DNA from: an uncultured bacterium
GTDB taxonomy: Bacteria; Verrucomicrobiota; Kiritimatiellia; RFP12; UBA1067
NCBI GenBank assembly: GCA_902802945.1
Contig: CADCOC010000010.1
Coordinates: 1,049-65,048, forward strand
Direction of reading: 5' to 3'
Length of the DNA: 64,000 bases
In this document: positions 3,189-48,690 of the stretch, piece by piece
Layout: each line of letters begins with the position of its first letter
Position numbering within the stretch: the first letter of the stretch is position 1
Program-made: the position numbers and the translations under genes
Notes under the pieces: generated by a model
What the model saw: the letters and a program-made list of their open reading frames with translations, nothing else
The model's database searches: none
Told to the model about the DNA's origin: nothing

Positions 3189-4553
3189 ATGATCGTCAAA
3201 CTGCTGCTCGACAAAAAACGAGAAGGGGGCGAACTGGCACCGGAGGAGATTCGCGCGCTGATCGACGCCTACACGCGCGGCGACGTGCCCGACTACCAGA
3301 TGGCGGCGTTCGCAATGGCCGTGTGCTGCCGCGGTATGACCGCCGCCGAGACGCACGCGCTCACGGACGCGATGCAGCATTCCGGCGAATGCCTCAAATG
3401 GCAAGGGCCTTCAGCAGACAAGCATTCGACGGGCGGCATCGGCGACAAACTTTCGCTCATCATCCAGCCGCTTGCCGCGTCGTGTGGGATATCCGTGCCG
3501 TCTCTCGCGGGACGCGGACTCGGGCTCACGGGCGGCACGGTGGACAAGCTTGAGTCGATCCCCGGCTACAACGCATGCCTGTCGCTTGACGATTTCAGGC
3601 GCGTGGTGTCGGAATGTGGCGTGTCGATCGCCGCGCAGACGGCGGAGATCGCGCCGGCGGACAAGAAACTCTACGCGCTCCGCGACGTGACGGGAACGGT
3701 GCCGTCGATTCCGCTCATTGTGGGCTCGATTCTCTCGAAGAAGCTCGCGGAGGGCGCGGGGACGCTCGTCTTCGACGTGAAGTGCGGCGCGGGCGCGTTC
3801 ATGAAGACGCGCGCGGAGGCGTGTACGCTCGCGCGGGCACTGGTGGACGGCGCGCGCGCGGCGGGACGTCGCGCGGCGGCGCTTGTGACGGCGATGGACG
3901 AGCCGCTCGGGTGGACGGTCGGCAACGCGCTTGAGGTTGAGGAGGCGATTGGGGTGTTGCGGGGGGACAACGGGCAAGATGCCCGTTGTCGCATTTGCGG
4001 GCAAGATGCCCGCCACCCCGATCATGTGGTTGACGAGCAAAATGCCCGCCACTCCGAAGATGTGGTGGAGCTTTCGGGGGAGTTGGCGACGCGGATGGTG
4101 GCGCTGGAGAAGGGCGTGGCGCTTGAAGAGGCGCGGGCGATGTGCAGGGAGAACCTTGCGAATGGCGCGGCTTGGGAGCGGTTTGCGGAGATGGTGAAGC
4201 TGCATGGCGGAGATTTGGAGGCGTTCGCGTCGCGTCCGCGCGGCGAGGCGCACGTTGTCGCTGCGTCGCGTGCCGGGTATGTGGCGAGGGTGGACGCGGA
4301 GGGAATCGCGAAGGCGGCGTTCGAGTTGGGGGCGGGGCGTGCGAAGTCTGACGACACCATCGACTTCGCGGCCGGCGTGACGCTCGCTGTGGCACATGGT
4401 GACCGTGTGGAGGTTGGGCAACCGCTTGCGTGGCTGTATGCGCCAACGCGTCCGGAGCGTCTGGCCGATGCGGCGCGACTAGTACAGGGCTCTATTGCGA
4501 TTACGTCGGAGCAGCCAGCCGCCAAGCAGCTGATACTGGAGGTGGTGGAATGA
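3189..4553 (+). CDS. deoA: thymidine / pyrimidine-nucleoside phosphorylase, carrying a ~28-aa loop insertion
   Basis: Motifs DKHSTGGIGDK, SLAGRGLGLTGGTVDKLE and TVGNALEVEEAI. 454 aa. Extra segment NGQDARCRICGQDARHPDHVVDEQNARH lies after GVLRGD. Confidence 0.9.
   Translation: MIVKLLLDKKREGGELAPEEIRALIDAYTRGDVPDYQMAAFAMAVCCRGMTAAETHALTDAMQHSGECLKWQGPSADKHSTGGIGDKLSLIIQPLAASCGISVPSLAGRGLGLTGGTVDKLESIPGYNACLSLDDFRRVVSECGVSIAAQTAEIAPADKKLYALRDVTGTVPSIPLIVGSILSKKLAEGAGTLVFDVKCGAGAFMKTRAEACTLARALVDGARAAGRRAAALVTAMDEPLGWTVGNALEVEEAIGVLRGDNGQDARCRICGQDARHPDHVVDEQNARHSEDVVELSGELATRMVALEKGVALEEARAMCRENLANGAAWERFAEMVKLHGGDLEAFASRPRGEAHVVAASRAGYVARVDAEGIAKAAFELGAGRAKSDDTIDFAAGVTLAVAHGDRVEVGQPLAWLYAPTRPERLADAARLVQGSIAITSEQPAAKQLILEVVE
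3964..4068. repeat. in-frame palindromic / tandem mini-element cluster inside deoA
   Basis: Hairpin 1: GGGACAACGGGCA-AGA-TGCCCGTTGTCGC (3964-3992, 12 of 13 bp paired). Hairpin 2: GCGGGCA-AGA-TGCCCGC (3997-4013). Two ~33-nt tandem units follow: GCAAGATGCCCGCCACCCCGATCATGTGGTT and GCAAAATGCCCGCCACTCCGAAGATGTGGTG. Confidence 0.85.
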
Positions 4554-14434: not shown

Positions 14435-14471
14435 CGCCTGCGGGAAATCTCCCGCAGGCGTCCGTTTTTTT
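14435..14471 (+). terminator. Rho-independent terminator
   Basis: Perfect 11-bp stem CGCCTGCGGGA / TCCCGCAGGCG, 4-nt loop AATC, then TCCG plus T7. Lies directly after the stop at 14404. Confidence 0.7.
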
Positions 14472-18534: not shown

Positions 18535-21500
18535 GTGCTTAAAATTTTTGTAGAGTTTGCCGCTTACGGTGTTGCCGCGATTCTGGCGGCGGTGTGTATT
18601 TTTGTCTGGGCGTGGAAGTGGAGCGGTTGGTCATGGTCTGTTGTGTCGCGGCAGCTGCGGCGCTCGGTGCTCGCGGTGATGGTCGTACTGGCCGTCGTCG
18701 CCACCATTGAAGCGCAGAAACGTTCCGGGAACGAAGCGACAGGAGTGTCGCTTCCCCGAGAAGAGCCACCCGTCGGGGAAGCGGCACTCTTGCCGCTTCC
18801 CGCCACCAACACCCTCCACTTCTCCACCATCGCCGTACCCACGAGCGGTACAGTTACGCTCACGGCCGCATGGCCCGAGAACTTCCTCACAGCGGGCCAG
18901 ACACTCGACATTCTGAGGAAAGAAGACCTCCGCGACGAGACGTGGATATGGCTCACGAACGGAGTTGTAGAGGCTGGCTCGACCAACATGACATGGACAA
19001 TCGAGAACCAGTCTCCGTCCAACTCATTCTACAAGGCCGTCGTGCGCGAATCGCTCACGGATATGGACGACCCCGACGGCGACGGGTTACCGAACGTCTA
19101 CGAACTCGCACATGGCATGAATCCGTGGCTGAACGACTACGCCCACGTACAAAAATTGACAGTTGGACCGAACGGCGAGTTTGGCGACATCTTTTCTGCG
19201 CTCGCGGAAAGCGAGGAGTATTCAATCATTGCTGTTACGTCTGGCACTTATCAAGTCAATGGTGGCGTCCAGATGCCTCCCCATCCCGTGATGGTTACGT
19301 GTGAAGACGGCTACGCAGTGTTCAGCGGCACGTCCCCAACGGCGATGTTCCTTCTCGGAAACGGACACGATAGCGGACATACGCTCTTCCGGAATCTGTA
19401 CCTGAACCTGACCTCGACAAGCGGCATGCAGGCCGGGTTCTGGTGCGGAGGGGGTTTGCCATGGGAAACGCCAGGCGCGTCGGCCGTGTTTGAGAACGTT
19501 CACATCCGTGCGCCGAATCCCGGCGTGGAGTATTTCGGTTGGCTGTTCTACGCCCCGTGTGACGCGCCCTCTGTGATCAAGGGGTGTTGCGTCAACGCTT
19601 CCGGCGCTGAATGGATTTATGCGGTTTTCGGTGACAACCCGCCGCCGGTTGTGGTAGAATCATGCACGTTCGTGAACTTCCCTGTCCAAAGCGATTATCA
19701 GAGCGCGGCCGTCGGACTGCGTTCCACGTATGCGAACGGCGCGATTACCTCCACGCCGCCCGTGATGGTGTCGCGTACCCTGTTTGACGCATCCTTCACC
19801 AACGCCTGGCCGCTCGCGCGCTTTGAGAACGCTGGAGATTTCCCAGTGACGATGACGGACTGCATTATTCCGTCCGCGCCAGTCTCGCCCGACTTCATGC
19901 CGAACGTTACCAATAATATGCACATCGTCACGTCGCAAGTCGCCTGGGCGGGATTCCCGCTCGCGGACTCGCCCGCCGTCGCCCTCGGTATCGGCGCGTT
20001 CGCGCCCCTTGCCAACGACCCGCTTGCAGATATGGACAATGACGGGATTTCTGACTACGAGGAGGTATTTGATTACGGTACGGATCCGTTTCTAAAGGAC
20101 TCGGACAACGACGGTATCTTGGATGACGTTGAAATCTTTGTCGACCATACGGACCCAAGCAATCCTTATTCGTTCAAACAAAATTTGACCGTGGCCGTGA
20201 CGAACAAGGCTTCGGCCGCATACGCGGTCTACACAGCATGGGGTATTTCGAATGTCGGGTGGGAGGCAAACGGCTTGGTAGCCTTCCCCGAAGGATTTGG
20301 CACGACCAACTACGTAGACGCCTCGTCACAGGGTGCGACGCACGTCAAGGCATTCTGTGATCTCAATGGGAACGGGACGTTTGATGCGGATTACGACATT
20401 CTGCGCGTGCGCTCCATCCCCCCTGGCAGTACGGCACGGGTGGACTTCGTTTTCGGCGATGTCGACGACGACGGTGTATCCGATGCGCAGGAACGCCAGC
20501 AGGGAACAGACCCGTATGACGGCAACAATTTTAGGTTGGTCGCGACGGTGAAAATTGAATCTTCCGACGTGGTGCCTAGCCTGACCAATTTTGTGGCATG
20601 GGGTTATTCAGCCGTTGGCTGGGAGCCGAACGACCTCGCGCGGTTCGCGGGAACTTCCCTGACGTTTCCGGTCAATGCGTCAGTCATAGGCGGTGAACTT
20701 TTTGTAAAGGTATTTCGCGACTTCAACGCGAACGGGGTCTACGATGTGGATGTGGACGCGCTCGTCTCAAATCGGCTGACGCGGGCGGATAATGGAAAGA
20801 CAGTGACGTTCAACATCGGCGATAGCGATGGAGACAAAATATCCGACAGTGTCGAGCTGGCTGAAGGTACGAATCCCCTCGACAAGCGTAATTACTGCTT
20901 CAACCTGTCGCTGACGTACACGGACGTGTTCCAGACGACGAACGCGCTTACCTTTGCGGCTTCGTTCGGGACGAATCGCGTGTACGGTCCGTGCGTTGTG
21001 GAGGGGAACGTCTGGAGCAACGACTTCGGACACTGTTCTACGACAACAAAGGAGCAGATTTCAGTGGACATGTGGGACGACATGAACCAGAACGGCGAAT
21101 GGGACTCGGGCGAGACAAGCAACAAGTACGTGATCGTAGTCACCGGTCATAACATGGTTGAGACGAATAAGCTGGCTTACAAGAACTTTGACCGCAACAA
21201 CAATGAACTGCCCGACTGGTGGGAGGCGCAGACAGGGCTTAGCAGTGTAACCAATGGTGGTGCTTATGTGGACACTGACGGAGACGGACTGATCAACCTG
21301 TACGAATATTGCTATGGATTCAATCCGCTTGTTTCGGACGCGATGAACACACTGCCCGCTGTGACGACGCGTACAACCAATGTGATGCTTGCTGATGCCG
21401 GAAAGCCGGCAGTTTCCCTACCGAAGTTCATTAACTACCTCTCAAACGGCCAGAACGGCCTCTTTGTTACAAACGCGCATTTCTGGGCGCGTGGATTGGA

Positions 21501-22173
21501 CACGTCATGTGTCAGCATGTGGAATTCATTTGATGGGAAAAAACGTGGTGGAACATTGATTAGTGCCCGTCACATTATTTTTGCCCATCATTTTCCACTG
21601 AGTCCAAATGACAAAGTGATATTCCTAGGAACGGATTCGACGGTTCATACAAACACAATTCTTGCAACGCAACGAGTGGCAGGAACAGATATCCGCATTG
21701 CGGCCTTACAGACCGAAGTTGATACAACCATCATCCATCCTGCAAAGATACTTCCTCCAGATTATGCCGACTACATTGGAATTGGTCAATATCTGCCAGT
21801 TCTACGCTTTGACCAAGACGAAAGATTTCTTGTTAGCGAAATATCCCAAGAAATACCGTTCTTCGCATCGGCGCAGTCCGAGTCCGAGGAGTCAATCATG
21901 ATGACATCGCCATCGTCTGAATTGTGGAGATCTTTTTATTCGCCCATCCGCAATCTTGATTCAGGTAATCCTTTCTTTCTGCTCGCCGGCAACGAGATTG
22001 TCTTGCTGGGTACACTTCATTGGCGATGGAACGGCTATTCTTCGTGTAGCGGCCCGTTCGTGACCACATACGCACAAGATATCCAGGATGCGATGGATAC
22101 GCTTGCGCCTGGTTATTCGTTATCGTATTTAGACTGTTCACCTTATGACAAATTACAGGAGGTGCCGAGATGA
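18535..22173 (+). CDS. very large secreted protein with thrombospondin type-3-like Ca-binding repeats and a C-terminal trypsin-fold-like domain
   Basis: Repeats DPDGDGLPNVYE, DMDNDGISDYEE, DSDNDGILDD, DVDDDGVSDAQE, DSDGDKISDS and DTDGDGLINLYEY. C-terminal H/D/S candidates TLISARHIIFAHH, DIRIAAL and LDSGNPFFLL have chymotrypsin-like spacing. Start may be GTG 18535 or GTG 18643 (MSRQLRRSVLAVMVVLAVVATIEA). Confidence 0.7.
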   Translation: MLKIFVEFAAYGVAAILAAVCIFVWAWKWSGWSWSVVSRQLRRSVLAVMVVLAVVATIEAQKRSGNEATGVSLPREEPPVGEAALLPLPATNTLHFSTIAVPTSGTVTLTAAWPENFLTAGQTLDILRKEDLRDETWIWLTNGVVEAGSTNMTWTIENQSPSNSFYKAVVRESLTDMDDPDGDGLPNVYELAHGMNPWLNDYAHVQKLTVGPNGEFGDIFSALAESEEYSIIAVTSGTYQVNGGVQMPPHPVMVTCEDGYAVFSGTSPTAMFLLGNGHDSGHTLFRNLYLNLTSTSGMQAGFWCGGGLPWETPGASAVFENVHIRAPNPGVEYFGWLFYAPCDAPSVIKGCCVNASGAEWIYAVFGDNPPPVVVESCTFVNFPVQSDYQSAAVGLRSTYANGAITSTPPVMVSRTLFDASFTNAWPLARFENAGDFPVTMTDCIIPSAPVSPDFMPNVTNNMHIVTSQVAWAGFPLADSPAVALGIGAFAPLANDPLADMDNDGISDYEEVFDYGTDPFLKDSDNDGILDDVEIFVDHTDPSNPYSFKQNLTVAVTNKASAAYAVYTAWGISNVGWEANGLVAFPEGFGTTNYVDASSQGATHVKAFCDLNGNGTFDADYDILRVRSIPPGSTARVDFVFGDVDDDGVSDAQERQQGTDPYDGNNFRLVATVKIESSDVVPSLTNFVAWGYSAVGWEPNDLARFAGTSLTFPVNASVIGGELFVKVFRDFNANGVYDVDVDALVSNRLTRADNGKTVTFNIGDSDGDKISDSVELAEGTNPLDKRNYCFNLSLTYTDVFQTTNALTFAASFGTNRVYGPCVVEGNVWSNDFGHCSTTTKEQISVDMWDDMNQNGEWDSGETSNKYVIVVTGHNMVETNKLAYKNFDRNNNELPDWWEAQTGLSSVTNGGAYVDTDGDGLINLYEYCYGFNPLVSDAMNTLPAVTTRTTNVMLADAGKPAVSLPKFINYLSNGQNGLFVTNAHFWARGLDTSCVSMWNSFDGKKRGGTLISARHIIFAHHFPLSPNDKVIFLGTDSTVHTNTILATQRVAGTDIRIAALQTEVDTTIIHPAKILPPDYADYIGIGQYLPVLRFDQDERFLVSEISQEIPFFASAQSESEESIMMTSPSSELWRSFYSPIRNLDSGNPFFLLAGNEIVLLGTLHWRWNGYSSCSGPFVTTYAQDIQDAMDTLAPGYSLSYLDCSPYDKLQEVPR
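18721..18801. repeat. in-frame composite palindromic mini-element (three palindromes)
   Basis: CGTTCC-G-GGAACG (18721-18733). GAAGCGACA-GGAG-TGTCGCTTC (18733-18754). GGGAAGCGGCA-CTCT-TGCCGCTTCCC (18775-18801). The last two are an inverted pair around CCCCGAG...CCGTCGGGG. Confidence 0.85.
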
Positions 22174-22880
22174 AGATTCCACGAAGCGATCTGGTGAAAC
22201 GGATGCTTTTGATAGCGTTCTCGAGCCTTGTTGTCTGCCTCGCCAATGCGGCAAATGTCATCTGGCGTGAAGGTTACGAAGGACAACGATTCGGATGGGC
22301 CGATTGGACAGGATGGGGAGGCCCTTCGGATGCTTGGGGGCTTGGAATCTCAGAAGTCGTTGGAGGAAGGTATTTTGAGGTTTATTTCTGGATGGAGACG
22401 CTTGTAGATGATGGAGGGACTTCGGTTCGCATTCATGCGTCAGATTTCTTGGCCGACATCCCTTTTGATCCTAATTATACAGGTTTCGTTCCCGTAAACG
22501 TTATTCAGGCGGAGGCGGGCGGCATCATCAGCGCGGCGAATACGAAGGGGCGTGACAATCGATATTTCTTTGCCAATGGTACCGATGTAGGCGACGAGTT
22601 GCGACGCGATTACGATATCATAATTCCACTTGAAGGTGATCGGAGATTCTACTTCGGACTCAGCATAGAAATGGATCCCAATCGTCTATATGGTTGGGTG
22701 GAGGCACAGGCGAACGAGAACGGCGAACTTTCGTCTTTGGCCTATGCTATCGACCTTGACGGCGGGCCTATGATCGTGGGGGGCGGCCCGGCTATTCCCG
22801 AGCCGTCGGCGGCGGTGCTGCTGCTCGTGGGCGGCGCGCTGCTGGCGTTAAGACGGAGGAGAACGAATCCCCGAATATGA
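22170..22880 (+). CDS. PEP-CTERM sorting-domain protein
   Basis: N-terminal signal peptide. C-terminal IPEPSAAVLLLVGGALLALRRRR. ATGA overlap with the upstream gene. Confidence 0.8.
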   Translation: MKIPRSDLVKRMLLIAFSSLVVCLANAANVIWREGYEGQRFGWADWTGWGGPSDAWGLGISEVVGGRYFEVYFWMETLVDDGGTSVRIHASDFLADIPFDPNYTGFVPVNVIQAEAGGIISAANTKGRDNRYFFANGTDVGDELRRDYDIIIPLEGDRRFYFGLSIEMDPNRLYGWVEAQANENGELSSLAYAIDLDGGPMIVGGGPAIPEPSAAVLLLVGGALLALRRRRTNPRI

Positions 22881-23497
22881 ACCTAAGATTGAAGAAAGTT
22901 TTGGCGAGTCTGTTGTGGGGTCTCGCGGTCATCCCAGTCTTTTCTGCAAATGTCGACTGGAACAAGGCATTTGTGGTTTATGAAGGACTGGATTATTCCG
23001 GGGTTTACGAGCAATACACGATGGGAAGCCCTTTTCTGAACATGAAGGCGTTGAGGAATGGCAACGCTCTTGAGATATGGGCGCAGCCAGAGGTGAATCT
23101 TGTGGCGGCAAATACATTTGTCCTACTGAGTAGCGTTTTGATGGAAAGTGTGATTTCACCCGAAATGATTTACGGCTCGTCCGATTACTTTGCCTATGCT
23201 GTCTGTACTGACTCCGTTGGGGGATACGAGGAGAAGGCTGACTATTCGGTGACAATTACTCAAGGCGAATCTGTTTATCTTGGGTTCGCCAGCCAACCGG
23301 CAACACTGACCGATCCTGTCACATGCGGCTGGATTGAGTTAGGCCTTGATGGCGAGGGATATTTGACCGTAATTCAATCGGCCTGGGATCGTGACGGTGA
23401 TCCGATTCGTGTGGGTGCCACCCCTGAACCGTCGTCGGCGCTGCTACTGCTCGTGGGCGGCGCGCTGCTTGCACTGCGGCGGCGGGCTTTGGTATAA
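22877..23497 (+). CDS. PEP-CTERM sorting-domain protein
   Basis: N-terminal signal peptide. C-terminal TPEPSSALLLLVGGALLALRRR. ATGA overlap with the upstream gene. Confidence 0.8.
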   Translation: MNLRLKKVLASLLWGLAVIPVFSANVDWNKAFVVYEGLDYSGVYEQYTMGSPFLNMKALRNGNALEIWAQPEVNLVAANTFVLLSSVLMESVISPEMIYGSSDYFAYAVCTDSVGGYEEKADYSVTITQGESVYLGFASQPATLTDPVTCGWIELGLDGEGYLTVIQSAWDRDGDPIRVGATPEPSSALLLLVGGALLALRRRALV

Positions 23498-23504: not shown

Positions 23505-26201
23505 ATGACAGCGCGTTATCCATCGTCTATCCGCGAGGAGGAACTGAAGAACAAGGTCGCCGCCGACTTCTTCGGCGCGTTCGACTGCACCCGCATCATC
23601 GGCAACGTGGATTTCTGCGTGGCGGCGAAGCGGAGCGCGCGTCCCGAGTCCCTCTATTGGGCCGAGGCGAAGAATCATCCGACCGATGTCCACCAGATGC
23701 TGGCCCAGCTGATCCTTACGATCGGCAGGGCGGCCAGCCCTCTGGCCGCTGCGGCGGGCGCGGGGCGACAACCCTACCATGCGGACGAACCTCCCAAGTT
23801 CGCCGGATGCTTCGACAACGAGAAGATCGCCTTCGTCGAGTACCACCACATCCTCCCCGTCTTCAACCTCAACGACTTCAACTGGACGCAGACGCCCTCC
23901 GCCGTGGACGGAAAGACCGTCGAGACCGTCCGCGGCGTCGTCCCCTCTGACAAGATCGTCGTGTTCCGCTTCGGCGCGGACGATGCGGAGATCAAGGCGT
24001 TCATCCGCCACAACTTCACGTCCGGCGAAGGCCCCGCACTCGCCACCCCCATCGACCGCAACAACTTCACCTTCATCTACCAGAAGTGGCGCGCCGAGGT
24101 GATGCCGCACATCGACGCTCCGTGGGACGTCCTCAAAAAGAAGTACGCCCTCTACGACCGAGACTTCTTCCTCGCCGAGATGAACGTGGACGACAACGGC
24201 ACGCCCGAGGTCGTGGACGACCGCCCCGCCGAGGACTTCTACATCACCTTCGACGTAAACGACAAGAAGCCGTATTGCATCCATCGCAAGAACGAGGACG
24301 AGTTTGACATCAGCATGTCTTTCGGCTTTAAACCCGACGGACTCTCCGCCTACGCCTCCTTCTGGCGGCGGTACAAGCGCCCGCCCAAGCGCGAATACTG
24401 GGACTTCATCGTCTCTCGCCTCGACCTGCTCGTTCCGCAGGACGTGCGCGAGCGCAAGGGATCTTTCTTCACGCCAGCCATCTGGGTTGAGAAGTCGCAG
24501 CAGTACATCGCCGCCGTGCTTGGTGAGAACTGGCAGGACGAATACTATGTGTGGGACTGTGCGGGCGGTACGGGCAACCTCGAGGTCGGTCTCACGAACA
24601 AGTACCGCGTCTGGGTCTCGACCCTCGACCAGCAGGATGTGGATGTGGTCAAGGAACGGGTAAGGAACGGTGCGAACCTCCTCGAAAGCCACGTGTTTCG
24701 CTTCGACTTCCTCAACGATCCCTTTGACAAGCTGCCGCAGGGGTTGAGGGACATTCTCGCCGATCCAGAAAAGCGTAAACGCCTTGTTGTCTACATTAAC
24801 CCGCCGTACGCTGAGGCGGGGGATGTCCGCCAGCGTTCTGGCACAGGAAAAAACAAAAATGATGTCTCGGTCGTCCATGTCACGTACGACCGTTACTTGG
24901 AGAAGATCGGTATTGCCGGTCGCGAACTTTTTGCGCAGTTTTTCATGCGCATCCATGATGAGATTCCTGGGTGCGTCCTTGCCGAGTTCTCGAAGCTGAA
25001 GCACCTTCAATCTCCCAACTTCAAGGCGTTTCGACAAGCGTTTCGCGGTACGCTCGAAAAGTGTTTCATCGTTCCCGCAGATACTTTCGACAATGTGAAG
25101 GGCGACTTCCCAATCGGTTTCTTCGTGTGGCGGCTAGAGGATCTTGCTTTCGCTACAGGGAGGATAGGAGATTGGGAGGTCGGGAGAGATTGTAAGCAAA
25201 CTCCTAAACTCCAAGTCTCCCAATCTCCCAGCAGCGAAAGCAATTCAACAAATGGCGTGTTCACGTCAACCGTGGCGGACGTGTACGATCGTAAGGGCAA
25301 GTTCATCGGCACGAAGACGATTCTCGCGTATGACGATGTGGCCAACATCGGGAAATGGGTAAACTCTTTTCGCCATGACGACGATGTGCATCTTGGCTTC
25401 ATGAGCAATGGGCGTAACGATTTCCAAAATACTAATCTTGTCTATTTCATTAATGACAGGAATCAATTGTCTACACCGCGAGGTTGGTGGATGACTCCAC
25501 CGAACTTGATTCCAATGTGTATTTTTGTCGCTGTGCGGCATAGCGTAAAGGCAACATGGTTGAATGACCGAGACACTTTTCTTTATCCAAATGACGGATG
25601 GCAGAATGATTTCGGTTTTCAGTCAGATTGCCTTGTGTATACGCTCTTTTCCGATTTCAACGCTATCAAGTCCAAGTATGGTGTCAACCATTGGATCCCG
25701 TTCACGGAGGAAGAGGTGGGGGCGAAGGATTGCTTCGCGAGCCACTTCATGAGTGACTGGCTGGCGGGGCGCGGGGCGGCGGCGCGCACGGGGTGCGCGC
25801 CCTACCAGGGGGACTTGTTCGCGGCAACGGGCGACACGCCCGTTGGCCTTGTGAACGGGCAAGATGCACGTTCCCCCAGTTGTGAAGCGGCGAGAGCGCC
25901 GCTTCCCCGACGGGCGCACCTCGGGGCACTGTCGCTTCCCGCGCGGGCGGTGATGGACGCCGGGCGGGAGTTGTGGCGGTACTACCACGCGCAGCCGGGT
26001 GCGAATCCGAACGCCTCTTACTACGACATCCGCCTGCATTTCCAGGGCGTGAAGCGCACCTCATCCGGCAAGGAACAGATGAACGCCACCTCCGCCGACG
26101 AAACCTACAACAGACTTCTTGCCGCCCTGCGCGCCGCCCACAAGGCCCTTGCCGCGCAGATCGCCCCGAAGGTGTACGAGTATGGGTTTTTGAAGCGTTA
26201 G
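23505..26201 (+). CDS. gamma-class N6-adenine DNA methyltransferase fused to an N-terminal PD-(D/E)xK-like region (MmeI-like type IIG/IIL RM candidate)
   Basis: Methyltransferase motif X GSFFTPAIWV, motif I YVWDCAGGTGNLE and motif IV VVYINPPYAEAG. N-terminal NVDF...YWAEAKNH resembles a D...ExK nuclease motif. 898 aa is close to MmeI size. Confidence 0.65.
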   Translation: MTARYPSSIREEELKNKVAADFFGAFDCTRIIGNVDFCVAAKRSARPESLYWAEAKNHPTDVHQMLAQLILTIGRAASPLAAAAGAGRQPYHADEPPKFAGCFDNEKIAFVEYHHILPVFNLNDFNWTQTPSAVDGKTVETVRGVVPSDKIVVFRFGADDAEIKAFIRHNFTSGEGPALATPIDRNNFTFIYQKWRAEVMPHIDAPWDVLKKKYALYDRDFFLAEMNVDDNGTPEVVDDRPAEDFYITFDVNDKKPYCIHRKNEDEFDISMSFGFKPDGLSAYASFWRRYKRPPKREYWDFIVSRLDLLVPQDVRERKGSFFTPAIWVEKSQQYIAAVLGENWQDEYYVWDCAGGTGNLEVGLTNKYRVWVSTLDQQDVDVVKERVRNGANLLESHVFRFDFLNDPFDKLPQGLRDILADPEKRKRLVVYINPPYAEAGDVRQRSGTGKNKNDVSVVHVTYDRYLEKIGIAGRELFAQFFMRIHDEIPGCVLAEFSKLKHLQSPNFKAFRQAFRGTLEKCFIVPADTFDNVKGDFPIGFFVWRLEDLAFATGRIGDWEVGRDCKQTPKLQVSQSPSSESNSTNGVFTSTVADVYDRKGKFIGTKTILAYDDVANIGKWVNSFRHDDDVHLGFMSNGRNDFQNTNLVYFINDRNQLSTPRGWWMTPPNLIPMCIFVAVRHSVKATWLNDRDTFLYPNDGWQNDFGFQSDCLVYTLFSDFNAIKSKYGVNHWIPFTEEEVGAKDCFASHFMSDWLAGRGAAARTGCAPYQGDLFAATGDTPVGLVNGQDARSPSCEAARAPLPRRAHLGALSLPARAVMDAGRELWRYYHAQPGANPNASYYDIRLHFQGVKRTSSGKEQMNATSADETYNRLLAALRAAHKALAAQIAPKVYEYGFLKR
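25167..25228. repeat. perfect 12-bp inverted repeat with 38-nt spacer inside the methyltransferase ORF
   Basis: GGAGATTGGGAG (25167-25178) pairs with CTCCCAATCTCC (25217-25228). Confidence 0.8.
25781..25940. repeat. ~160-nt in-frame chain of palindromic mini-elements
   Basis: In order: GGCGCGCA-CGGGG-TGCGCGCC+CTACCAGG; AACGGGCG-ACA-CGCCCGTT; ACGGGCA-AGA-TGCACGT; GAAGCGGCG-AGAG-CGCCGCTTC+CCCCGACGG; degenerate ...CACTGTCGCTTCCC. Confidence 0.85.
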
Positions 26202-32869: not shown

Positions 32870-33591
32870 AACCAGTCGTCGTCATACCGACTTACAACGA
32901 ACGCGAGAACGTGGAGGCCATGGCCGCCGCGGTTCTCGCAGTACTGCCGCCCGAAGGGCAGTTGTTGTTCCTCGACGACAACTCGCCGGATGGCACTGGC
33001 GCGGTGATTGACTCAATCTGTGCGCGCGAGGCACGCGTCCACGTGATGCACCGCGAAAAGAAGGAAGGTCTCGGTCGCGCATACGTGGCTGGATTCGCCG
33101 AGGCTCTGCGGATGGGGGCGACGCACGTCATTGAGATGGACTGCGACTTCTCGCACGATCCGAAGGACGTTCCGCGCTTGCTTGCGGCGGTCGCGGGGCG
33201 ACCGCCCTACCAGGAGGGCGGAGCGGACGTCGCCATCGGTTCGCGCTACGTGAAGGGTGGTAAGTGCGTGGGCTGGCCGTTCCGCCGCTGGCTCATCTCT
33301 CGCGCGGGCGGCATCTTCATCCGTTTCATGCTCGGTGTTCCGGTGAAGGACCCCACGGGCGGCTTCAAGTGTTTCACGCGCCGCGCGCTTGAATTGCTCG
33401 GTGACTTCTCGTCGATCAAGTCCTTCGGCTACTCGTTCCAGATGGAAATGAACTACCGGATGTGGAAGGCGGGCCTGAAGCTCGTCGAGGTTCCCATCAC
33501 CTTCTCCGAACGCCGCGCCGGCGCATCGAAGATTTCCGGTTCCATCGCCGTTGAATCCCTCAAGATGGTCTTCAAGCTGAAGTTTAGCTGA
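32866..33591 (+). CDS. GT2 polyprenol-phosphate mannosyl/glycosyl transferase (Dpm1/Ppm1-like)
   Basis: Motifs [35 protein letters not shown] and AIGSRY. 241 aa. Confidence 0.82.
33189..33214. repeat. hairpin + CCCTACCAGG mini-element inside the GT2 gene
   Basis: GGTCGC-GGG-GCGACC followed by GCCCTACCAGG. Confidence 0.6.
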
Positions 33592-33675: not shown

Positions 33676-35571
33676 ATGAAAGCTGGAGAAATCAAAAAAG
33701 CCGTGGTACTGGCGGCTGGTTTCGGAACGCGACTCAGGCCGCTCACGCTAGTGCGGCCCAAGCCGTTGTTGCCCGTGTGGGGCGTTCCGATGCTCGAGCG
33801 CATCCTACGCATGCTCGAGTCGTGGGGCGTGGAGGAGATCGCCGTGAACGCCCACTGGCAGGCACCGCAGGTGCGCCAGTTCGTCGCAACACGCAAGGGC
33901 CGCGCGAAGGTGACGGTGGCGGAGGAGCCGGAGATACTCGGCACGGGCGGCGTGCTGAACCCGCTCCGGTACTTCCTCGGCGACGGCCCGCTCGGTGATC
34001 GGGCCCTACCAGGTGGCTCGTTCTGGCTCGTGAACGGGGACGTCGTGGCGGAGGGGCTAGACCCGCAGCCGATCGTGGACGCCTTTGAACGGAGCGGCCG
34101 TTTCGCCGCGTGCTGGCTCTCGGATACCCAGGGCCCGCGCACGGTCGAGGCCGACCCCGAGGGACGCATCTGCAACTGGAAGAGCGACGTGCCGGGTGAC
34201 GCCGGCACTTACACCTACTGCGGATGCGCGCTCCTCTCGCCGCAGGTGCTCGGCTACGTGGCGCCGTCCGGCTTCTCCACGATCGTGCAGGCCTATGAGA
34301 AGGCGATGATGGAGGACGCGAAGTTCGTGGTGGGCGTGACCGAGGAACAGGCGTTCTGGGGCGACGCCGGCACGCTCGAAAGCTATCTCGAGATCCACAA
34401 CGCGCTCGATCCCGATCGCTTCGAGGAAAACCCGAACGTGCTGTTCGAGGGCGTGAAGCTCGTCGACACCGCCGATCTCGGCGGGTGCGTGGTGACGGGC
34501 GGACTCGTGGGCGGCGCGTTTGAGCGCACCGCGCTTGTGGGACTCGACCAGATCGACGCGCCGCGTCTCGCGGCGCTTGCGGACGCGCTCGGCTGGCCGC
34601 GTGCGGACGTGGCGTGCGGCTTCCTCGGCGCGCGCGGCAGCGACCGCAGTTTCTGGCGGTTCGTCCATGGCGACGACCGCGCGATCGCGATCGAGTACGA
34701 CGACGCGAAGCGTCCCGAGAACGCGCGCTACGCGTCTCATGCACGCCTCCTCGCGGAGGCCGGCGTGCCCGTGCCGCGCGTGTTGGCGGACGTGCCCGAG
34801 CAGAAGGCGCTTGCGCTCGAGGACATCGACGGCGACTCGCTCGAAGACCGCGCGAACCGGCGCGGCGCCGATCTCGTGAAACTCTACACGCCGGTCGTGA
34901 AGGCGTTGCGCACGCTGCACGAGAAGGGCACCGAGCTCGCGCTCGCGCAGGACGTGAAGCTCGAGCCGTCGTTCGGTCCCGAGCTCTACGCCTGGGAACG
35001 CGATCTCTTCGAGACGTACTGCGTGAAAGAGCGCTTTGGCTATGACGCCCTCCCGAAGGACGTGCGCGCCGAGCTGGAGGACGTGGCGAGTGAGCTGATG
35101 CGCCAGCGTCCCGTGCTCGTGCACCGCGACTTCCAGAGCTCGAACGTACTTTACCGTCCGGCCCGCTCGGTGATCGGGCCCTACCAGGCGGATTTCGCGT
35201 TTATTGATTTCCAGGGGATGCGACTCGGCGCGGCCGCGTACGACCTCGCCTCGCTCCTGTACGACCCCTACGTGCCGCTCGACGAGAAGACGCGCGCCTC
35301 GCTCGCGCGGGTTTATCCCGTGGAGAAGCTCGCGTTCGGCGCGGTGCAGCGTCTCGTGCAGGCACTCGGCGCGTTCGGTCGGCTTGCCTCCGTGGGACAG
35401 CCGCAGTTCGGACGCCACGTGGCGCCCGCGCTCCAGAACCTGCTCGCGGCGGCGGACGAGGCGGACCTCGACGCGCTCGGCGCGTTCGCGGAGGACCTCA
35501 TCGCCAAGGAGGAGATCCGCCTCGGCCGTTTCCACCACCACCATCACGGTGAAGAAGGCGAAGAGGAATGA
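33676..35571 (+). CDS. fusion of a sugar-1-phosphate nucleotidyltransferase and an APH-fold sugar kinase (MurU-AmgK-like, peptidoglycan recycling)
   Basis: N-terminal KAVVLAAGFGTRLRPLTLVRPKPLLPV. C-terminal LVHRDFQSSNVL ... IDFQGMRLGAAAYDLASLLYD. Ends HHHHHGEEGEEE. Confidence 0.65.
   Translation: MKAGEIKKAVVLAAGFGTRLRPLTLVRPKPLLPVWGVPMLERILRMLESWGVEEIAVNAHWQAPQVRQFVATRKGRAKVTVAEEPEILGTGGVLNPLRYFLGDGPLGDRALPGGSFWLVNGDVVAEGLDPQPIVDAFERSGRFAACWLSDTQGPRTVEADPEGRICNWKSDVPGDAGTYTYCGCALLSPQVLGYVAPSGFSTIVQAYEKAMMEDAKFVVGVTEEQAFWGDAGTLESYLEIHNALDPDRFEENPNVLFEGVKLVDTADLGGCVVTGGLVGGAFERTALVGLDQIDAPRLAALADALGWPRADVACGFLGARGSDRSFWRFVHGDDRAIAIEYDDAKRPENARYASHARLLAEAGVPVPRVLADVPEQKALALEDIDGDSLEDRANRRGADLVKLYTPVVKALRTLHEKGTELALAQDVKLEPSFGPELYAWERDLFETYCVKERFGYDALPKDVRAELEDVASELMRQRPVLVHRDFQSSNVLYRPARSVIGPYQADFAFIDFQGMRLGAAAYDLASLLYDPYVPLDEKTRASLARVYPVEKLAFGAVQRLVQALGAFGRLASVGQPQFGRHVAPALQNLLAAADEADLDALGAFAEDLIAKEEIRLGRFHHHHHGEEGEEE
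33985..34013 (+). repeat. 29-nt hairpin mini-element, copy 1 (GGCCCGCTCGGTGATCGGGCCCTACCAGG)
   Basis: Identical to 35160-35188. Read here as GPLGDRALPG. Confidence 0.9.
35160..35188 (+). repeat. 29-nt hairpin mini-element, copy 2
   Basis: Identical to 33985-34013. Read here in another codon phase as ARSVIGPYQ. Confidence 0.9.
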
Positions 35572-39460: not shown

Positions 39461-40342
39461 ATGGCAACAGACGAACGAATACAGGCGCTTGATCCGGCAA
39501 CAAAGCTTTCCGTGGTGCTGTGTGACTGCACGGCAGCGGCGGGGGCGTTGGCGAGGGGGCACCTCTCCGGGCCCACGGCGTCGTATTACCTCGCCGAGGC
39601 GCTGGCGGGCGTTGCGCTGCTCGGCGCGGAGACGTCGCAGGACGAAGAGACCGTGACATTCCGCCTCGACTGTCCTGGCCCGCTTGGCGGGTTCCTCGTG
39701 GAAGCGACAGCCGCCGGCACGTTGCGCGGCTACACGAAGCAGAAAATCCTCAACGACTTCGACGGACTCGGCGCTCCGAAAGATGCGAAGGTGCTGGGCG
39801 AAACGGGCACCTTCGAGATCATTCGATCAATCCCCGGCGCGATCCTCGCCTCCGGCGCAGTCGCGGTAGGGGCGCCTCGCAGAGGCGACCGCTCGGAAAC
39901 TTTCGTCGCCCAGGGGCTCGACGCCTTCTTCGCGCAGTCGCTCCAACGGCGCGTGCGCACGGCCGTGGCGGCGGCGGCGGGCGACGACGGCGTGCCCGTC
40001 TACGCACGCGGCGCGCTCGTGGAGTGTCCGCCCGACGGCGACGCCGCCGCGTTTGAGGCAGTGGCGGAGACGTTTGCTTCCGGCGCGGTGCAGAAGGCGC
40101 TTGCGTCGGGAACGGTCTCCGCGCGCACGCTCCTGAAAAAGCTTGGCCTCCCGCAGGCGGAGTTGCGTAGCACGACTCCGCTTTCGTTCGCGTGCCGGTG
40201 CAGTGCAGAACGGGCGGAGGCGATGCTCGCTGCGATTCCAGAGGCGGAGCGCGCCGCGTTGCCGCCACAACTCGACGTTACGTGCCACATGTGCGGCCGC
40301 ACGTGGACTGTCTCAACACGCCGCACGGAGAAGGGGGCCTGA
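39461..40342 (+). CDS. hslO: Hsp33 family redox-regulated chaperone
   Basis: C-terminal zinc centre CRCSAERAEAML...VTCHMCGRTW (CxC...CxxC). 293 aa. Confidence 0.88.
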   Translation: MATDERIQALDPATKLSVVLCDCTAAAGALARGHLSGPTASYYLAEALAGVALLGAETSQDEETVTFRLDCPGPLGGFLVEATAAGTLRGYTKQKILNDFDGLGAPKDAKVLGETGTFEIIRSIPGAILASGAVAVGAPRRGDRSETFVAQGLDAFFAQSLQRRVRTAVAAAAGDDGVPVYARGALVECPPDGDAAAFEAVAETFASGAVQKALASGTVSARTLLKKLGLPQAELRSTTPLSFACRCSAERAEAMLAAIPEAERAALPPQLDVTCHMCGRTWTVSTRRTEKGA

Positions 40343-47424: not shown

Positions 47425-48690
47425 ATGGAAGGCTCGATCCATCTGGTCGGCATCGGCGGCGTCGGGATGAGCGCGCTTGCGCAGGCTTATCTCGACGTCG
47501 GGTACGCCGTTTCGGGTGCAGACCGCTCTCTGCGCGCGGACGGGCGGTGCACGCCCGTCTTGGAGGCGCTGGCCACCGAAGGGGTTCGCCTGTTCCCCGA
47601 TGACGGATCGGGCGTTGGCGTCGGCACGGATCGCCTTGTGGTTTCAACGGCCATCGAGGATACGAACCCCGACCTCGCGGCTGCGCGCGCGCGCGGCATC
47701 CCCGTGGTCCACCGCGCGGCGGCGCTTTCCGAACTGCTTTCCGCGCGCAAGCTCGTTGCCGTGGCTGGCACGTGCGGTAAGTCCACTGTCACTGCTATTC
47801 TTGGGCATGTCCTTGTGGAATGCGGCTTCGACCCGCTCGTCGTCAACGGCGCGCAGGTCGTGGGCTGGGATGCAAACGGCACGCGCGTGGGGTCCGTGCG
47901 GAAGGGCGCGGGCGAATACGCCGTGGCGGAGGTCGATGAAAGCGACAAGTCGCTCACCGCGTTCCATCCGTACGCCGCGATTGTCACGAACGCCTCCGCC
48001 GACCACTACTCGAAGGAGGAGATGGCCGTCATCGACGGACGCGATCCGTCGGGGAAGCGGCACTCCTGCCGCTTCATTCATGAGGCGGAAGATGCGCTTG
48101 GCGTGTTCCCGATGCCTGGCGCGCACAACCGCGCGAACGCGCGCCTCGCGCTCGCGATGGCGATTGCGCTCGGGGCGGATCCCGCGAAGGCCGCCGCAGC
48201 GCTTGCCACGTTTCCCGGCGTGGAGCGCCGTCTTCAGCGCGTTGGTTCAGTCCTGTGTGGCGATCAAGAGGTCGCCGTCTACGATGACTACGCCCACAAT
48301 CCGGAGAAGCTTCACGCTATGTGGACTACGCTTGCGGAGGCGTATCCGCGCGGAGTGGCGGCGGTGTGGCGTCCGCACGGCTACGGCCCGCTGCGGAAGA
48401 TGCTCGAGCCGCTCGCGGCGGCGTTTCGCGGCGTGATGCGTCCGCAGGACGCGCTCGTGCTGCTGCCCGTCTATGACGCGGGCGGCACAGCGGACCGCAG
48501 CGTCAACTCCGACGCCCTCGCGGCGCTTATGGGAGACGCGCCTGGGGTCGTGAAGCTTGTTTCCGACTTAGAGGAGGCGGAGGAATATCTCCGCGCGCGC
48601 GCCGACGCCTTCGGCGCAATCGTTACGGCTGGTGCGCGCGATCCGGGATTGCCCGTGCTCGCGCGCCGTCTCGCCGGAAAGGAAAGATAA
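47425..48690 (+). CDS. murC: UDP-N-acetylmuramate--L-alanine ligase-like Mur ligase, compact form
   Basis: Motifs IHLVGIGGVGMSALAQ, VAVAGTCGKSTVTA, AEVDESDKS, VTNASADH, PGAHNRANA and YDDYAHNPEK. 421 aa. About 50 aa shorter than my recollection of E. coli MurC between the ADH and PGxHN motifs. Confidence 0.72.
   Translation: MEGSIHLVGIGGVGMSALAQAYLDVGYAVSGADRSLRADGRCTPVLEALATEGVRLFPDDGSGVGVGTDRLVVSTAIEDTNPDLAAARARGIPVVHRAAALSELLSARKLVAVAGTCGKSTVTAILGHVLVECGFDPLVVNGAQVVGWDANGTRVGSVRKGAGEYAVAEVDESDKSLTAFHPYAAIVTNASADHYSKEEMAVIDGRDPSGKRHSCRFIHEAEDALGVFPMPGAHNRANARLALAMAIALGADPAKAAAALATFPGVERRLQRVGSVLCGDQEVAVYDDYAHNPEKLHAMWTTLAEAYPRGVAAVWRPHGYGPLRKMLEPLAAAFRGVMRPQDALVLLPVYDAGGTADRSVNSDALAALMGDAPGVVKLVSDLEEAEEYLRARADAFGAIVTAGARDPGLPVLARRLAGKER
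47539..47559. repeat. GC hairpin mini-element inside murC (GACGGGCG-GTGCA-CGCCCGTC)
   Basis: Perfect 8-bp stem. Same ACGGGCR/YGCCCGT stem family as 3970-3987 and 25826-25871. Confidence 0.7.
48046..48075. repeat. 30-nt hairpin mini-element inside murC
   Basis: CCGTCGGGGAAGCGGCACTCCTGCCGCTTC matches 18770-18799 at 29 of 30 positions, but is read here as PSGKRHSCRF rather than (P)VGEAALLPL. Confidence 0.88.

What the first reader, a model, noticed from the sequence alone, without database searches (positions are those of the whole stretch)
25781..25940. ~160-nt in-frame chain of four to five GC-rich hairpins inside the methyltransferase ORF, linking all mini-element families
Consecutive modules are: GGCGCGCA-CGGGG-TGCGCGCC+CTACCAGG; AACGGGCG-ACA-CGCCCGTT; ACGGGCA-AGA-TGCACGT; GAAGCGGCG-AGAG-CGCCGCTTC+CCCCGACGG; and a degenerate half hairpin CACTGTCGCTTCCC. 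The reverse complement of the fourth module, CCGTCGGGGAAGCGGCGCTCTCGCCGCTTC, differs from 18770-18799 at only two positions. Those two positions form a compensatory base pair (A-T to G-C) in the stem. The third module shares the 13-mer ACGGGCAAGATGC with deoA (3970-3982). The whole chain stays open and encodes ARTGCAPYQGDLFAATGDTPVGLVNGQDARSPSCEAARAPLPRRAHLGALSLPARA. The structure resembles mosaic REP/BIME-type arrays, but it lies inside a coding region.
Basis: seen in the sequence. Interest (0 to 1): 0.72.

Follow-up and report, generated by a model that had tools for sequence, protein, structure and literature searches.

The report
In-frame REP hairpin cluster in gene
The 160-base hairpin chain is real: it is a cluster of small palindromic "REP" repeats sitting in frame in a floppy linker of a DNA-methyltransferase-like gene of a rumen Kiritimatiellae bacterium, and this kind of thing has already been described in related bacteria.

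Summary
Window 25781-25940 holds three perfect 9-bp GC-rich hairpins, one hairpin with a single mismatch and one truncated hairpin. All lie in frame in ORF 23505-26201.

The chain is a mosaic of three repeat families.
- Module 1 is a GTAG-tagged REP: a hairpin followed by CTACCAGG.
- Modules 2-3 are 'ACGGGCAAGATGCCCGT'-type hairpins.
- Modules 4-5 are a tail-to-tail dimer of CGTC-like-tagged hairpins, the reverse copy of the dimer at 18733-18801.

Orthologues settle the origin. Some have an empty site. The closest one has all five hairpins intact. Others carry different REP mosaics at the same linker. AlphaFold gives the segment pLDDT 25-30.

The GTAG family recurs in rumen Kiritimatiellae/Lentisphaerae contigs with at least 9 fully complementary stem variants. 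In three contigs it lies inside and beside RAYT (REP-associated tyrosine transposase) genes.

Other window genes carry the same units as in-frame insertions: a pyrimidine-nucleoside phosphorylase (deoA-like) and a Dpm1-like glycosyltransferase.

Intragenic GTAG/CGTC REPs, including clusters encoding 43-82 residues, were described by Di Nocera et al. 2013, most abundantly in the related verrucomicrobium Opitutus terrae.

This is a new member of a known kind, of moderate interest.

The parts
23505..26201 (+). Host ORF, 898 aa. A type IIG restriction-modification / N6-adenine DNA methyltransferase-like protein with motifs DCAGGTGN and NPPY.
   Evidence: Translation. No Pfam, NCBIfam, PADLOC or PDB-sequence hit. 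Foldseek of the AF2 model matches BpuSI (E 2e-9), DrdV, MmeI, CamA and type I M subunits. More than 7900 homologues.
25781..25809 (+). Module 1: GTAG-tagged REP. A 9-bp stem with GGG loop, then CTAC(CAGG). The reverse complement reads CCTGGTAG + hairpin.
   Evidence: The same unit with stem GGCGGTCGC occurs at 33186-33214 and in alleles P0130/P0131.
25825..25845 (+). Module 2: perfect 9-bp hairpin CAACGGGCG-ACA-CGCCCGTTG. Its tail GCCTTGTG reads GCCCAGTG in L200.
25853..25873 (+). Module 3: GAACGGGCA-AGA-TGCACGTTC, with one stem mismatch (A at 25868). It is perfect in L200, L206 and L158. Same family as the deoA-like ORF copies at 3966-4049.
25884..25913 (+). Module 4: hairpin GAAGCGGCG-AGAG-CGCCGCTTC + CCCGACGG. 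The reverse complement reads CCGTCGGG + hairpin, a CGTC-like tag.
25914..25940 (+). Spacer plus module 5: CTCGGGG + truncated hairpin, the inverted partner of module 4 (tail-to-tail dimer). The window allele has lost GAAGCG.
25144..25243 (+). Separate in-frame MITE-like palindrome of about 100 bp, with TIR TTGCTTTCGCT/AGCGAAAGCAA. Absent from the closest orthologue.
   Evidence: DNA fold z -3.65. pLDDT below 50 over residues 549-581.
23750..23778 (+). Degenerate GTAG REP in the N-terminal loop of the same ORF ('AGAGRQPYH'). Intact as 'AVAGRPPYH' in some orthologues and absent in most.
   Evidence: pLDDT below 50 over residues 75-95.
18733..18801 (+). Tail-to-tail dimer of the CGTC-like family in ORF 18535-22173. 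This is the forward-orientation counterpart of modules 5+4.
48033..48075 (+). Third copy of the CGTC-like unit (CCGTCGGG + GAAGCGGCACTCCTGCCGCTTC), in the MurC-like ORF.
3966..4049 (+). Three hairpins of the ACGGGCAAGATGCCCGT family. They form an insertion of about 24 aa in a pyrimidine-nucleoside phosphorylase.
   Evidence: The orthologous site in Kiritimatiellae RGIG2632 holds different REPs.
33186..33214 (+). Master-sequence GTAG REP. It corresponds to a 7-aa insertion in a Dpm1-like glycosyltransferase.
33985..34013 (+). GTAG REP with stem GGCCCGCTC/GATCGGGCC, in ORF 33676-35571.
35160..35188 (+). Second identical copy of that GTAG REP in the same ORF.
39865..39890 (-). Reverse-orientation GTAG REP (GGTAGGGGCGCCTCGCAGAGGCGACC), in ORF 39461-40342.

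Best explanation
The segment is a BIME-like cluster of REP-type palindromic mini-elements. They accumulated in a permissive, structurally disordered inter-domain linker of a large type IIG / N6-adenine-methyltransferase-like gene in a rumen Kiritimatiellae bacterium, and they are simply read through as a low-complexity peptide.

The cluster has three parts: one GTAG-tagged REP, two hairpins of a second family, and a tail-to-tail dimer of a CGTC-like-tagged family.

Shown:
- The units are dispersed repeats with covarying stems.
- The site is empty in some orthologues and holds different mosaics in others.
- The same units interrupt unrelated genes in frame.
- The GTAG family sits in and around RAYT genes in related contigs.

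Inferred:
- GTAG units are spread by the RAYT, a Y1 (HUH) transposase that recognises the single-stranded hairpin plus its tag.
- Only insertions that keep the frame and fall in tolerant loops survive selection.
- Once one unit is present the site attracts or tolerates more, and the array then turns over by indels, point decay and replacement of units.
- How modules 2-5 are mobilised is unknown.
For: Anatomy and statistics.

GTAG tag and hairpin go together. 38 of 304 CTACC sites follow a hairpin, against 0-1 for controls, with 15 stem types. 67 of 84 pattern hits are fully complementary, in 9 stem types.

Inverted dimers and arrays of the same REP occur in L129, L140, L192, L147 and L208.

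Empty-site and alternative-mosaic orthologues.

The closest orthologue, L200, has all five hairpins intact. The window copy is therefore a slightly decayed version.

Insertions relative to solved homologues: the pyrimidine-nucleoside phosphorylase carries about 24 extra aa and the glycosyltransferase 7 aa. The same site in the phosphorylase gene holds different REPs in Kiritimatiellae RGIG2632.

AF2 gives pLDDT below 50 at residues 75-95, 549-581 and 750-807, the three stretches that hold the insertion sites; eight other segments also fall below 50.

RAYT evidence:
- The L147 ORF matches NCBIfam REP_Tyr_transpos with E 5e-17.
- Its nearest homologues are labelled Kiritimatiellae, and more distant ones are labelled RayT.
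- L207 and L208 hold full RAYT ORFs studded with the same REPs.
- L208 comes from the same metagenome assembly as L002, which is 100% identical to the window.

Literature: PMC3733652 describes GTAG and CGTC superfamilies, complementary stem sub-families, dimers, and intragenic REPs, which are most numerous in O. terrae.
Against: - No RAYT lies in the 64-kb window. The rest of this genome was not available, so co-residence of RAYT and REPs in the same genome is not proven.
- No insertion event was caught in the act. Presence or absence between close strains was seen only as small indels and one stem replacement. That replacement could come from homologous recombination between methyltransferase alleles rather than from REP mobility.
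- Nearly all insert-bearing orthologues share P-Y-Q-G-(D/E)-L at the same spot. This fits one old insertion plus vertical descent as well as it fits repeated targeting.
- Modules 2-3 have no clear GTAG or CGTC tag.
- The CGTC-like tag varies in related copies: CGTC, CCTC, CTTC, GTTC, TTTC.
- In strain L158 the chain is fully intact although the gene around it is gone. This hints at some selection on the nucleic acid itself.
- Low pLDDT may partly reflect gaps in the alignment.
Confidence: 0.8

Rival explanations
1. The chain is kept because it works at the RNA or DNA level. It could be a REP-type mRNA 3'-end protector or terminator, a translation-pause site between two domains, or a binding site for a host protein or the RAYT. 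Its coding role would then be incidental.
For: - RNA fold z is -4.2.
- In strain L158 the methyltransferase body is deleted on both sides, yet all five hairpins are perfect. They sit right after the stop region of the upstream PEP-CTERM gene, the classical REP position.
- Imperfect GTAG copies show more G.T than C.A mismatches on the CTAC (mostly sense) strand. This is my own count from the sequences listed.
- Orientation is biased: 21 sense against 4 antisense in confident coding contexts.
Against: - Coding alleles show uncompensated decay: a mismatch in module 3 (window, L205) or module 2 (L206), and a deletion in module 5.
- Many orthologues lack the chain or carry unrelated units.
- The ORF-context heuristic is crude.
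- No expression data are available.
Confidence: 0.12
2. The segment is a protein-level adaptation. A flexible spacer between the methyltransferase/target-recognition body and the C-terminal helical domain is under selection, and the hairpins are a by-product of GC-rich codon usage.
For: - It is always in frame.
- Linker length varies widely but is non-zero in most close orthologues.
- It is predicted disordered.
Against: - The same DNA units are read in different frames in different genes: [27 protein letters not shown].
- Compensatory stem changes rewrite the peptide (RTGCAP versus VAGRPP) while keeping base pairing.
- The hairpin excess exceeds dinucleotide shuffles.
- Orthologues with the linker reduced to about 12 residues are common.
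Confidence: 0.05
3. The array arose locally, by slippage, duplication and hairpin-templated repair at a fragile GC-rich site. It would then have no link to transposition.
For: - Modules 2 and 3 are tandem relatives.
- Arrays with periods of 39, 96 and 113 bp exist elsewhere.
- The deletions in L158 end in microhomology (GCGGCGGCG) at the edge of the chain.
Against: - Each module has near-identical copies tens of kb away in unrelated genes and in other species.
- The conserved tag next to a variable stem is the signature of a recognised element.
- A RAYT association is seen.
Confidence: 0.03

Closest known systems
GTAG-tagged REPs and their RAYT transposases (REPtrons). Sources: Di Nocera et al. 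2013, PMC3733652; Nunvar 2010 and Bertels & Rainey 2011, from memory.
   Same: - Module 1 is a 21-nt GC hairpin with an adjacent GTAG tag.
- Sub-families have alternative complementary stems.
- HH and TT dimers occur.
- A cognate RAYT gene is associated with the same units in related contigs.
   Different: - Here most copies seen are inside genes and in frame, not extragenic.
- In these Kiritimatiellae contigs the REPs lie inside the RAYT ORF itself rather than only flanking it.
Intragenic GTAG REPs of Opitutus terrae (Verrucomicrobia). Source: PMC3733652, Additional file 3.
   Same: - The host belongs to the same PVC superphylum.
- Singles and dimers are inserted in frame in housekeeping genes, including an N-6 DNA methylase (Oter_3011, 53 REP-encoded residues).
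- GTAG-19 peptides such as HGQDARAT resemble the NGQDAR peptide of modules 2/3 here.
   Different: - The host class differs (Kiritimatiellae).
- The master sequences differ.
- The cluster here mixes three families in one 54-residue stretch.
- Modules 2/3 in the methyltransferase lack the GTGG/GTAG tag.
Rickettsia palindromic elements: RPE-1 (Ogata et al. 2000, from memory) and RPE-4/6, which are CGTC REPs (PMC3733652).
   Same: - Palindromic selfish repeats are inserted in frame and translated.
- Clusters encode 43-82 residues.
- A CGTC-type tag is present on modules 4/5.
   Different: - RPEs are AT-rich, and RPE-1 is 100-150 bp.
- Published CGTC stems start with A/T pairs and form mostly HH dimers. 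Here the stems are GAAGCG... and the dimer is TT.
E. coli BIMEs (bacterial interspersed mosaic elements; from memory)
   Same: A mosaic of several REP types in alternating or tandem orientation with short linkers at one locus. Composition varies between strains.
   Different: BIMEs are extragenic and have defined Y/Z REP types and IHF/gyrase/Pol I binding linkers. None of that was tested or seen here.
REPINs (REP doublets forming hairpins; Bertels & Rainey; bioRxiv 10.1101/2021.07.10.451892 listed)
   Same: Modules 4+5 and the unit at 18733-18801 are two inverted REPs about 20 nt apart that can pair as one long hairpin.
   Different: No RAYT link has been shown for this family. The copy number seen is small.

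Membership tests
GTAG-tagged REP superfamily | Short (20-40 bp) palindromic unit with a 6-13 bp stem and a short loop | tested here: met
   Module 1 has a 9-bp perfect stem and a 3-nt loop.
GTAG-tagged REP superfamily | Unpaired GTAG tetranucleotide directly at one end of the stem | tested here: met
   CTAC starts at 25802, immediately after the stem. 38 of 304 CTACC sites in related DNA follow a 9-3-9 hairpin, against 0-1 for control pentamers.
GTAG-tagged REP superfamily | Many dispersed copies in the genome | tested here: inconclusive
   There are 6-7 copies in this 64-kb window and dozens in related contigs. The whole genome was not available for a count.
GTAG-tagged REP superfamily | Sub-families with alternative complementary stem residues | tested here: met
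   There are 9 fully complementary inner-stem types among 84 pattern hits, and 15 stem types in unbiased loci.
GTAG-tagged REP superfamily | Cognate RAYT gene associated with the same units (REPtron) | tested here: met
   Met in related Kiritimatiellae-type contigs L147, L207 and L208. Not met in the window itself.
GTAG-tagged REP superfamily | Predominantly extragenic location | tested here: not met
   All window copies lie inside long ORFs. In metagenome hits, 25 of 67 lie deep in confident ORFs. The source paper accepts intragenic members, so this does not exclude membership.
CGTC-tagged REP superfamily (modules 4/5) | Terminal CGTC (or TGTC/CCTC) tag | tested here: inconclusive
   The window has CGTC on three units and CCTC/TCTC on their partners. 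Related copies also show CTTC, GTTC, TTTC and CGCC.
CGTC-tagged REP superfamily (modules 4/5) | 8-9 bp stem beginning with complementary A/T pairs; 4-5 nt loop; CCA tail; mostly HH dimers | tested here: not met
   The stem length (9) and loop (4) fit. But the stem starts G-A-A, no consistent CCA tail is seen, and the dimers are TT.
REPIN (inverted REP doublet) | Two REPs in inverted orientation, a short spacer apart, that can form one long hairpin | tested here: met
   In 18733-18801 the arms are 24/28 identical as inverted repeats, and the differences are compensated within each hairpin. Modules 4+5 are the same unit reversed.
E. coli-type BIME | Defined Y/Z REP types with specific linker motifs that bind IHF or gyrase | not testable with these tools
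   Only the general mosaic layout is shared.
Known structured RNA (Rfam) | Match to a curated covariance model | tested here: not met
   No hit falls in 25781-25940. Only weak miRNA-like hits (E 0.007-0.3, far below gathering scores) fall on the MITE-like palindrome at 25138-25246, plus one weak hit (E 0.36) at 25331-25422.

The most novel reading that the evidence does not exclude
The chain may be a self-standing nucleic-acid module kept by selection rather than neutral junk. Two observations point that way.
- It survives, with all five hairpins perfect, in a strain where two deletions removed the methyltransferase gene exactly up to its borders (L158).
- Every Kiritimatiellae RAYT gene examined carries its own cognate REPs in frame at fixed positions, for example right after the HUH motif.

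Together these would point to REP hairpins acting in cis on expression: mRNA 3'-end protection, translational pausing or RAYT autoregulation. The clade would then have co-opted REPs inside coding sequences.
Probability: 0.15. Interest if true: 0.6.

Novelty: new member of a known kind. Interest (0 to 1): 0.35.

Why it matters
The finding extends intragenic GTAG/CGTC-type REPs to Kiritimatiellae, an abundant but little-studied rumen and gut class. No paper in the library mentions REPs in this class.

It shows a gene family in which three separate surface loops serve as landing pads for small repeats.

For annotators, these units create recurrent peptide words ([31 protein letters not shown]...). 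Such words inflate protein-family diversity and break assemblies: the contig carrying the L147 RAYT starts inside that gene, 100 nt upstream of its REP array.

For evolutionary biology, the orthologue series offers a good natural data set on how selfish hairpins are tolerated, decay and are replaced inside proteins. The series runs from empty site, through intact chain and decayed chain, to chain without its gene.

Tried and rejected
- The single genome-contig scan went on a 15-mer (GACCGCCCTACCAGG) that was too unspecific. Only 5 true copies were found, all in Kiritimatiellae or Lentisphaerae rumen MAGs.
- Pfam, NCBIfam, PADLOC and the PDB sequence profile gave nothing for the host protein. 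Only the fold search named it.
- Rfam found no family in the chain.
- The MurC alignment could not show whether the hairpins at 47539 and 48033 are insertions.
- A tblastn hit of E. coli RayT (sequence recalled from memory) in L184 was spurious, because it lies inside a long glycosidase-like ORF.
- I considered filing modules 4/5 as true CGTC REPs and rejected firm membership, because stem composition, tail and dimer type do not fit.
- I considered filing modules 2/3 as GTAG REPs. Only the copies at 3997 and 4033 in the pyrimidine-nucleoside phosphorylase gene have a GTGG-like tag. The methyltransferase copies end in (G/T)CCCAGTG instead.
- The coding-context census rests on longest-ORF and GC3 heuristics. 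It is indicative only.
Full report
**1. Observation**

Window 25781-25940 lies in ORF 23505-26201 (+), which encodes 898 aa.

An exhaustive hairpin scan finds three perfect hairpins with 9-bp stems:
- 25781-25801 (GGG loop)
- 25825-25845 (ACA loop)
- 25884-25905 (AGAG loop)

Module 3 (25853-25873) has one G.A mismatch. The 'half hairpin' (25927-25940) is a truncated unit.

- The two differences from 18770-18799 are the loop-closing base pair.
- The 13-mer shared with 3970-3982 is real.
- The translation is correct.

The signal exceeds chance.
- Hairpins with stems of at least 9 bp number 11 in the window, against 2.5 +/- 1.5 in dinucleotide shuffles. Three of the 11 fall in this stretch.
- The segment folds better than all 200 shuffles, as DNA (z -3.5) and as RNA (z -4.2).

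**2. What the modules are**

Module 1 is a hairpin directly followed by CTACCAGG. Its reverse complement is CCTGGTAG + hairpin, which is the layout of GTAG-tagged REPs.

The same tail follows other hairpins at 33186, 33985 and 35160, at 39865 on the minus strand, and in degenerate form at about 23750. All of them are inside ORFs.

A pattern that fixes only the outer stem, loop and tail gave 84 hits, 82 in 77 metagenome contigs plus the window's two. In 67 of them the four free pairs are fully complementary, in nine different combinations. The hits with 0-1 complementary pairs look like chance matches.

I also checked 243 kb of related DNA that was not selected by that pattern.
- 38 of 304 CTACC sites are preceded by a 9-3-9 hairpin with at least 8 pairs.
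- For five control pentamers the figure is 0-1.
- The distribution is bimodal, and 15 stem types are present.

Modules 4 and 5 are a tail-to-tail dimer of a second family, (N)NTCGGGG + GAAGCGRCR-N4-YGYCGCTTC.
- It is the reverse copy of the dimer at 18733-18801.
- A third unit sits at 48046.
- More copies occur in related contigs, with two covarying stem positions.

Modules 2 and 3 belong to a third family, (G/C)AACGGGCR-AGA-YGCCCGTT(C/G) + (G/T)CCCAGTG. This family is also present three times in the deoA-like gene at 3966-4049.

**3. Insertion status**

I aligned 34 of more than 7900 homologues. The segment lies between the conserved blocks SHFMSDxL and LSPAARAVLDAGRELWRYYH.
- Homologues of 813-817 aa have nothing there.
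- Others have mosaics of different repeat words.

At the DNA level, the closest orthologue sampled outside the window's own 90%-identity cluster (L200, 88-89% nt identity) has the same five modules, all intact. The empty-site orthologue L203 reads HFMSDYLRVSAPLRENLSPAA. Other orthologues start with a GTAG REP of a different stem and continue with other hairpins.

The alleles of the window's lineage differ in three ways:
- a 6-bp in-frame indel in module 5
- point changes that break module 2 or module 3
- in P0130/P0131, a wholesale switch of the module 1 stem from GGCGCGCAC to GGCGGTCGC, which is three compensated pairs

Two further in-frame repeat insertions sit in the same ORF:
- a degenerate GTAG REP at about 23750
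- a MITE-like palindrome of about 100 bp at 25144-25243

An AlphaFold model built on the alignment gives pLDDT below 50 over residues 75-95, 549-581 and 750-807, the stretches that hold these three sites; eight other segments also fall below 50.

**4. The same thing happens in other genes**

- The hairpin triple at 3966-4049 is an insertion of about 24 aa relative to pyrimidine-nucleoside phosphorylase 1brw.
- The orthologous site in Kiritimatiellae RGIG2632 (L105, 81% nt identity) holds a different GTAG REP plus another hairpin.
- The REP at 33186 corresponds to a 7-aa insertion relative to Dpm1 structure 5mlz.
- Among metagenome copies, many lie hundreds of codons deep in long high-GC3 ORFs, mostly in sense orientation and in the AVAGRPPYQ frame (heuristic).

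**5. Host and organism**

The protein has no profile-database match. It carries motifs DCAGGTGN and NPPY, and its model matches the type IIG enzymes BpuSI, DrdV and MmeI and adenine methyltransferases. 'Methyltransferase-like' is therefore reasonable.

The window is a rumen Kiritimatiellae genome.
- It shares 81% identity over 3 kb with MAG RGIG2632.
- The true REP hits of the genome scan all fall in Kiritimatiellae or Lentisphaerae rumen MAGs.

**6. Mechanism**

L147 carries a partial ORF that matches NCBIfam 'REP-associated tyrosine transposase' once its REP insert is removed (E 5e-17; HUH motif PDHLHFIV, Tyr motif YDYILGNPV). It contains three tandem in-frame copies of the master GTAG REP and an inverted copy at its 3' end.

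Its nearest database relatives are labelled Kiritimatiellae. More distant ones are labelled RayT.

Two full genes, in L207 and L208, show the same picture. REPs of the module 1 design lie in frame in the N-terminal part, right after the HUH motif, and near the C-terminus. L208 comes from the same metagenome assembly as L002, which is identical to the window.

The window itself has no RAYT.

RAYT-driven spread of the GTAG units is thus well supported by association but not demonstrated. For modules 2-5 no mobilising enzyme can be named. This matches the literature statement that CGTC REPs lack a dedicated transposase.

**7. Comparison with what is known**

Di Nocera, De Gregorio and Rocco (2013, PMC3733652) define the GTAG and CGTC REP superfamilies. 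They describe:
- sub-families with alternative complementary stems
- HH, TT and HT dimers and grouped elements
- intragenic REPs, most numerous in Opitutus terrae (PVC superphylum) and Rickettsia conorii, with clusters encoding 43-82 residues

Their supplementary table lists an O. terrae N-6 DNA methylase with a 53-residue REP-encoded stretch. It also lists GTAG-19 peptides such as HGQDARAT, close to the NGQDAR peptide of modules 2/3 here.

The finding is therefore a new member of a known kind, in a new host class. No paper in the library links Kiritimatiellae with REPs.

**8. What remains odd**

Contig L158 comes from the same species, with 96-98% identity in the flanking genes. It lacks the methyltransferase body.
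- The end of the upstream PEP-CTERM gene joins the first base region of the chain through a 9-bp microhomology (GCGGCGGCG).
- The last hairpin joins the final 39 nt of the methyltransferase ORF.
- All five hairpins are perfect there.

This fits hairpin-bordered deletion. It also leaves room for a nucleic-acid-level role of the chain. I rate that reading at about 0.15.

Noticed in passing
window 25144-25243: A MITE-like imperfect palindrome of about 100 bp, with 11-bp terminal inverted repeats TTGCTTTCGCT/AGCGAAAGCAA and lower GC. It is inserted in frame in the same ORF and encodes LAFATGRIGDWEVGRDCKQTPKLQVSQSPSSESNS. It is absent from the closest orthologue, P0003. Its right half (KLQDSKTPSSES) recurs in the C-terminal linker of other orthologues. 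It gives weak miRNA-precursor-like Rfam hits on both strands.
   Followed up: partly
L158 1-520 (minus strand), compared with window 23474-23482, 25774-25942 and 26163-26201: A strain of the same species lacks the methyltransferase body but keeps the complete, perfect five-hairpin chain. The chain sits directly after the PEP-CTERM gene and before the last 39 nt of the methyltransferase ORF. The left junction has the 9-bp microhomology GCGGCGGCG. The downstream gene is ychF instead of the glycogen phosphorylase.
   Followed up: partly
L207 2189-2878; L208 about 2100-2899; L147 3-470: RAYT (REP-associated tyrosine transposase) genes of Kiritimatiellae-type contigs carry their own cognate GTAG REPs in frame inside the transposase ORF, not just flanking it. 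The REPs lie in the N-terminal part, always right after the HUH motif, and near the C-terminus. Database homologues P0133, P0135 (4 copies), P0147 and P0153 show the same.
   Followed up: partly
window 3966-4049 compared with L105 about 1000-1100: The same loop of the pyrimidine-nucleoside phosphorylase gene is occupied by three 'NGQDAR' hairpins in the window. In Kiritimatiellae RGIG2632 it holds a GTAG REP (GGCGCGCTC-GGC-GAGCGCGCC+CTACC) plus another hairpin. Orthologous sites thus hold different repeat families.
   Followed up: partly
L205 5196-5502 compared with window 25700-26000: Alleles P0130/P0131, members of the window protein's 90%-identity cluster, have the module 1 stem replaced (three compensated pairs) plus four more changes in the next 15 nt. 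This is a patch of about 45 nt that looks like a conversion or recombination tract.
   Followed up: partly
window 22170-23497: The two small ORFs upstream of the methyltransferase-like gene (236 and 206 aa) end in PEP-CTERM sorting signals (NCBIfam TIGR02595, E about 1e-4). The neighbourhood of the methyltransferase-like gene differs in every orthologous contig examined, which suggests it sits in a variable island.
   Followed up: no
window 14435-14460: An 11-bp perfect hairpin followed by a T-run (CGCCTGCGGGA-AATC-TCCCGCAGGCG tccgttttttt). It looks like an ordinary intrinsic terminator after ORF 13931-14404 and is not a REP.
   Followed up: no
L135 52-532; L147 102-207; L208 2194-2410: GTAG REPs also occur as tandem arrays with fixed periods of 113, 39 and 96 bp, in which the spacer sequences are repeated as well.
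   Followed up: no
alignment A1, linker columns (orthologues P0014, P0017, P0007, P0116 and others): Other recurrent peptide words appear in the linkers of orthologues: LCLCVKE(N/S)LS, NPVNPVNPV, ENVELCKCGNMEIC, HFHNSTLSHF. They probably translate further, non-hairpin dispersed repeats of those genomes. LCLCVKENLS looks like a frame-shifted relative of the SLRENLS found at empty sites.
   Followed up: no
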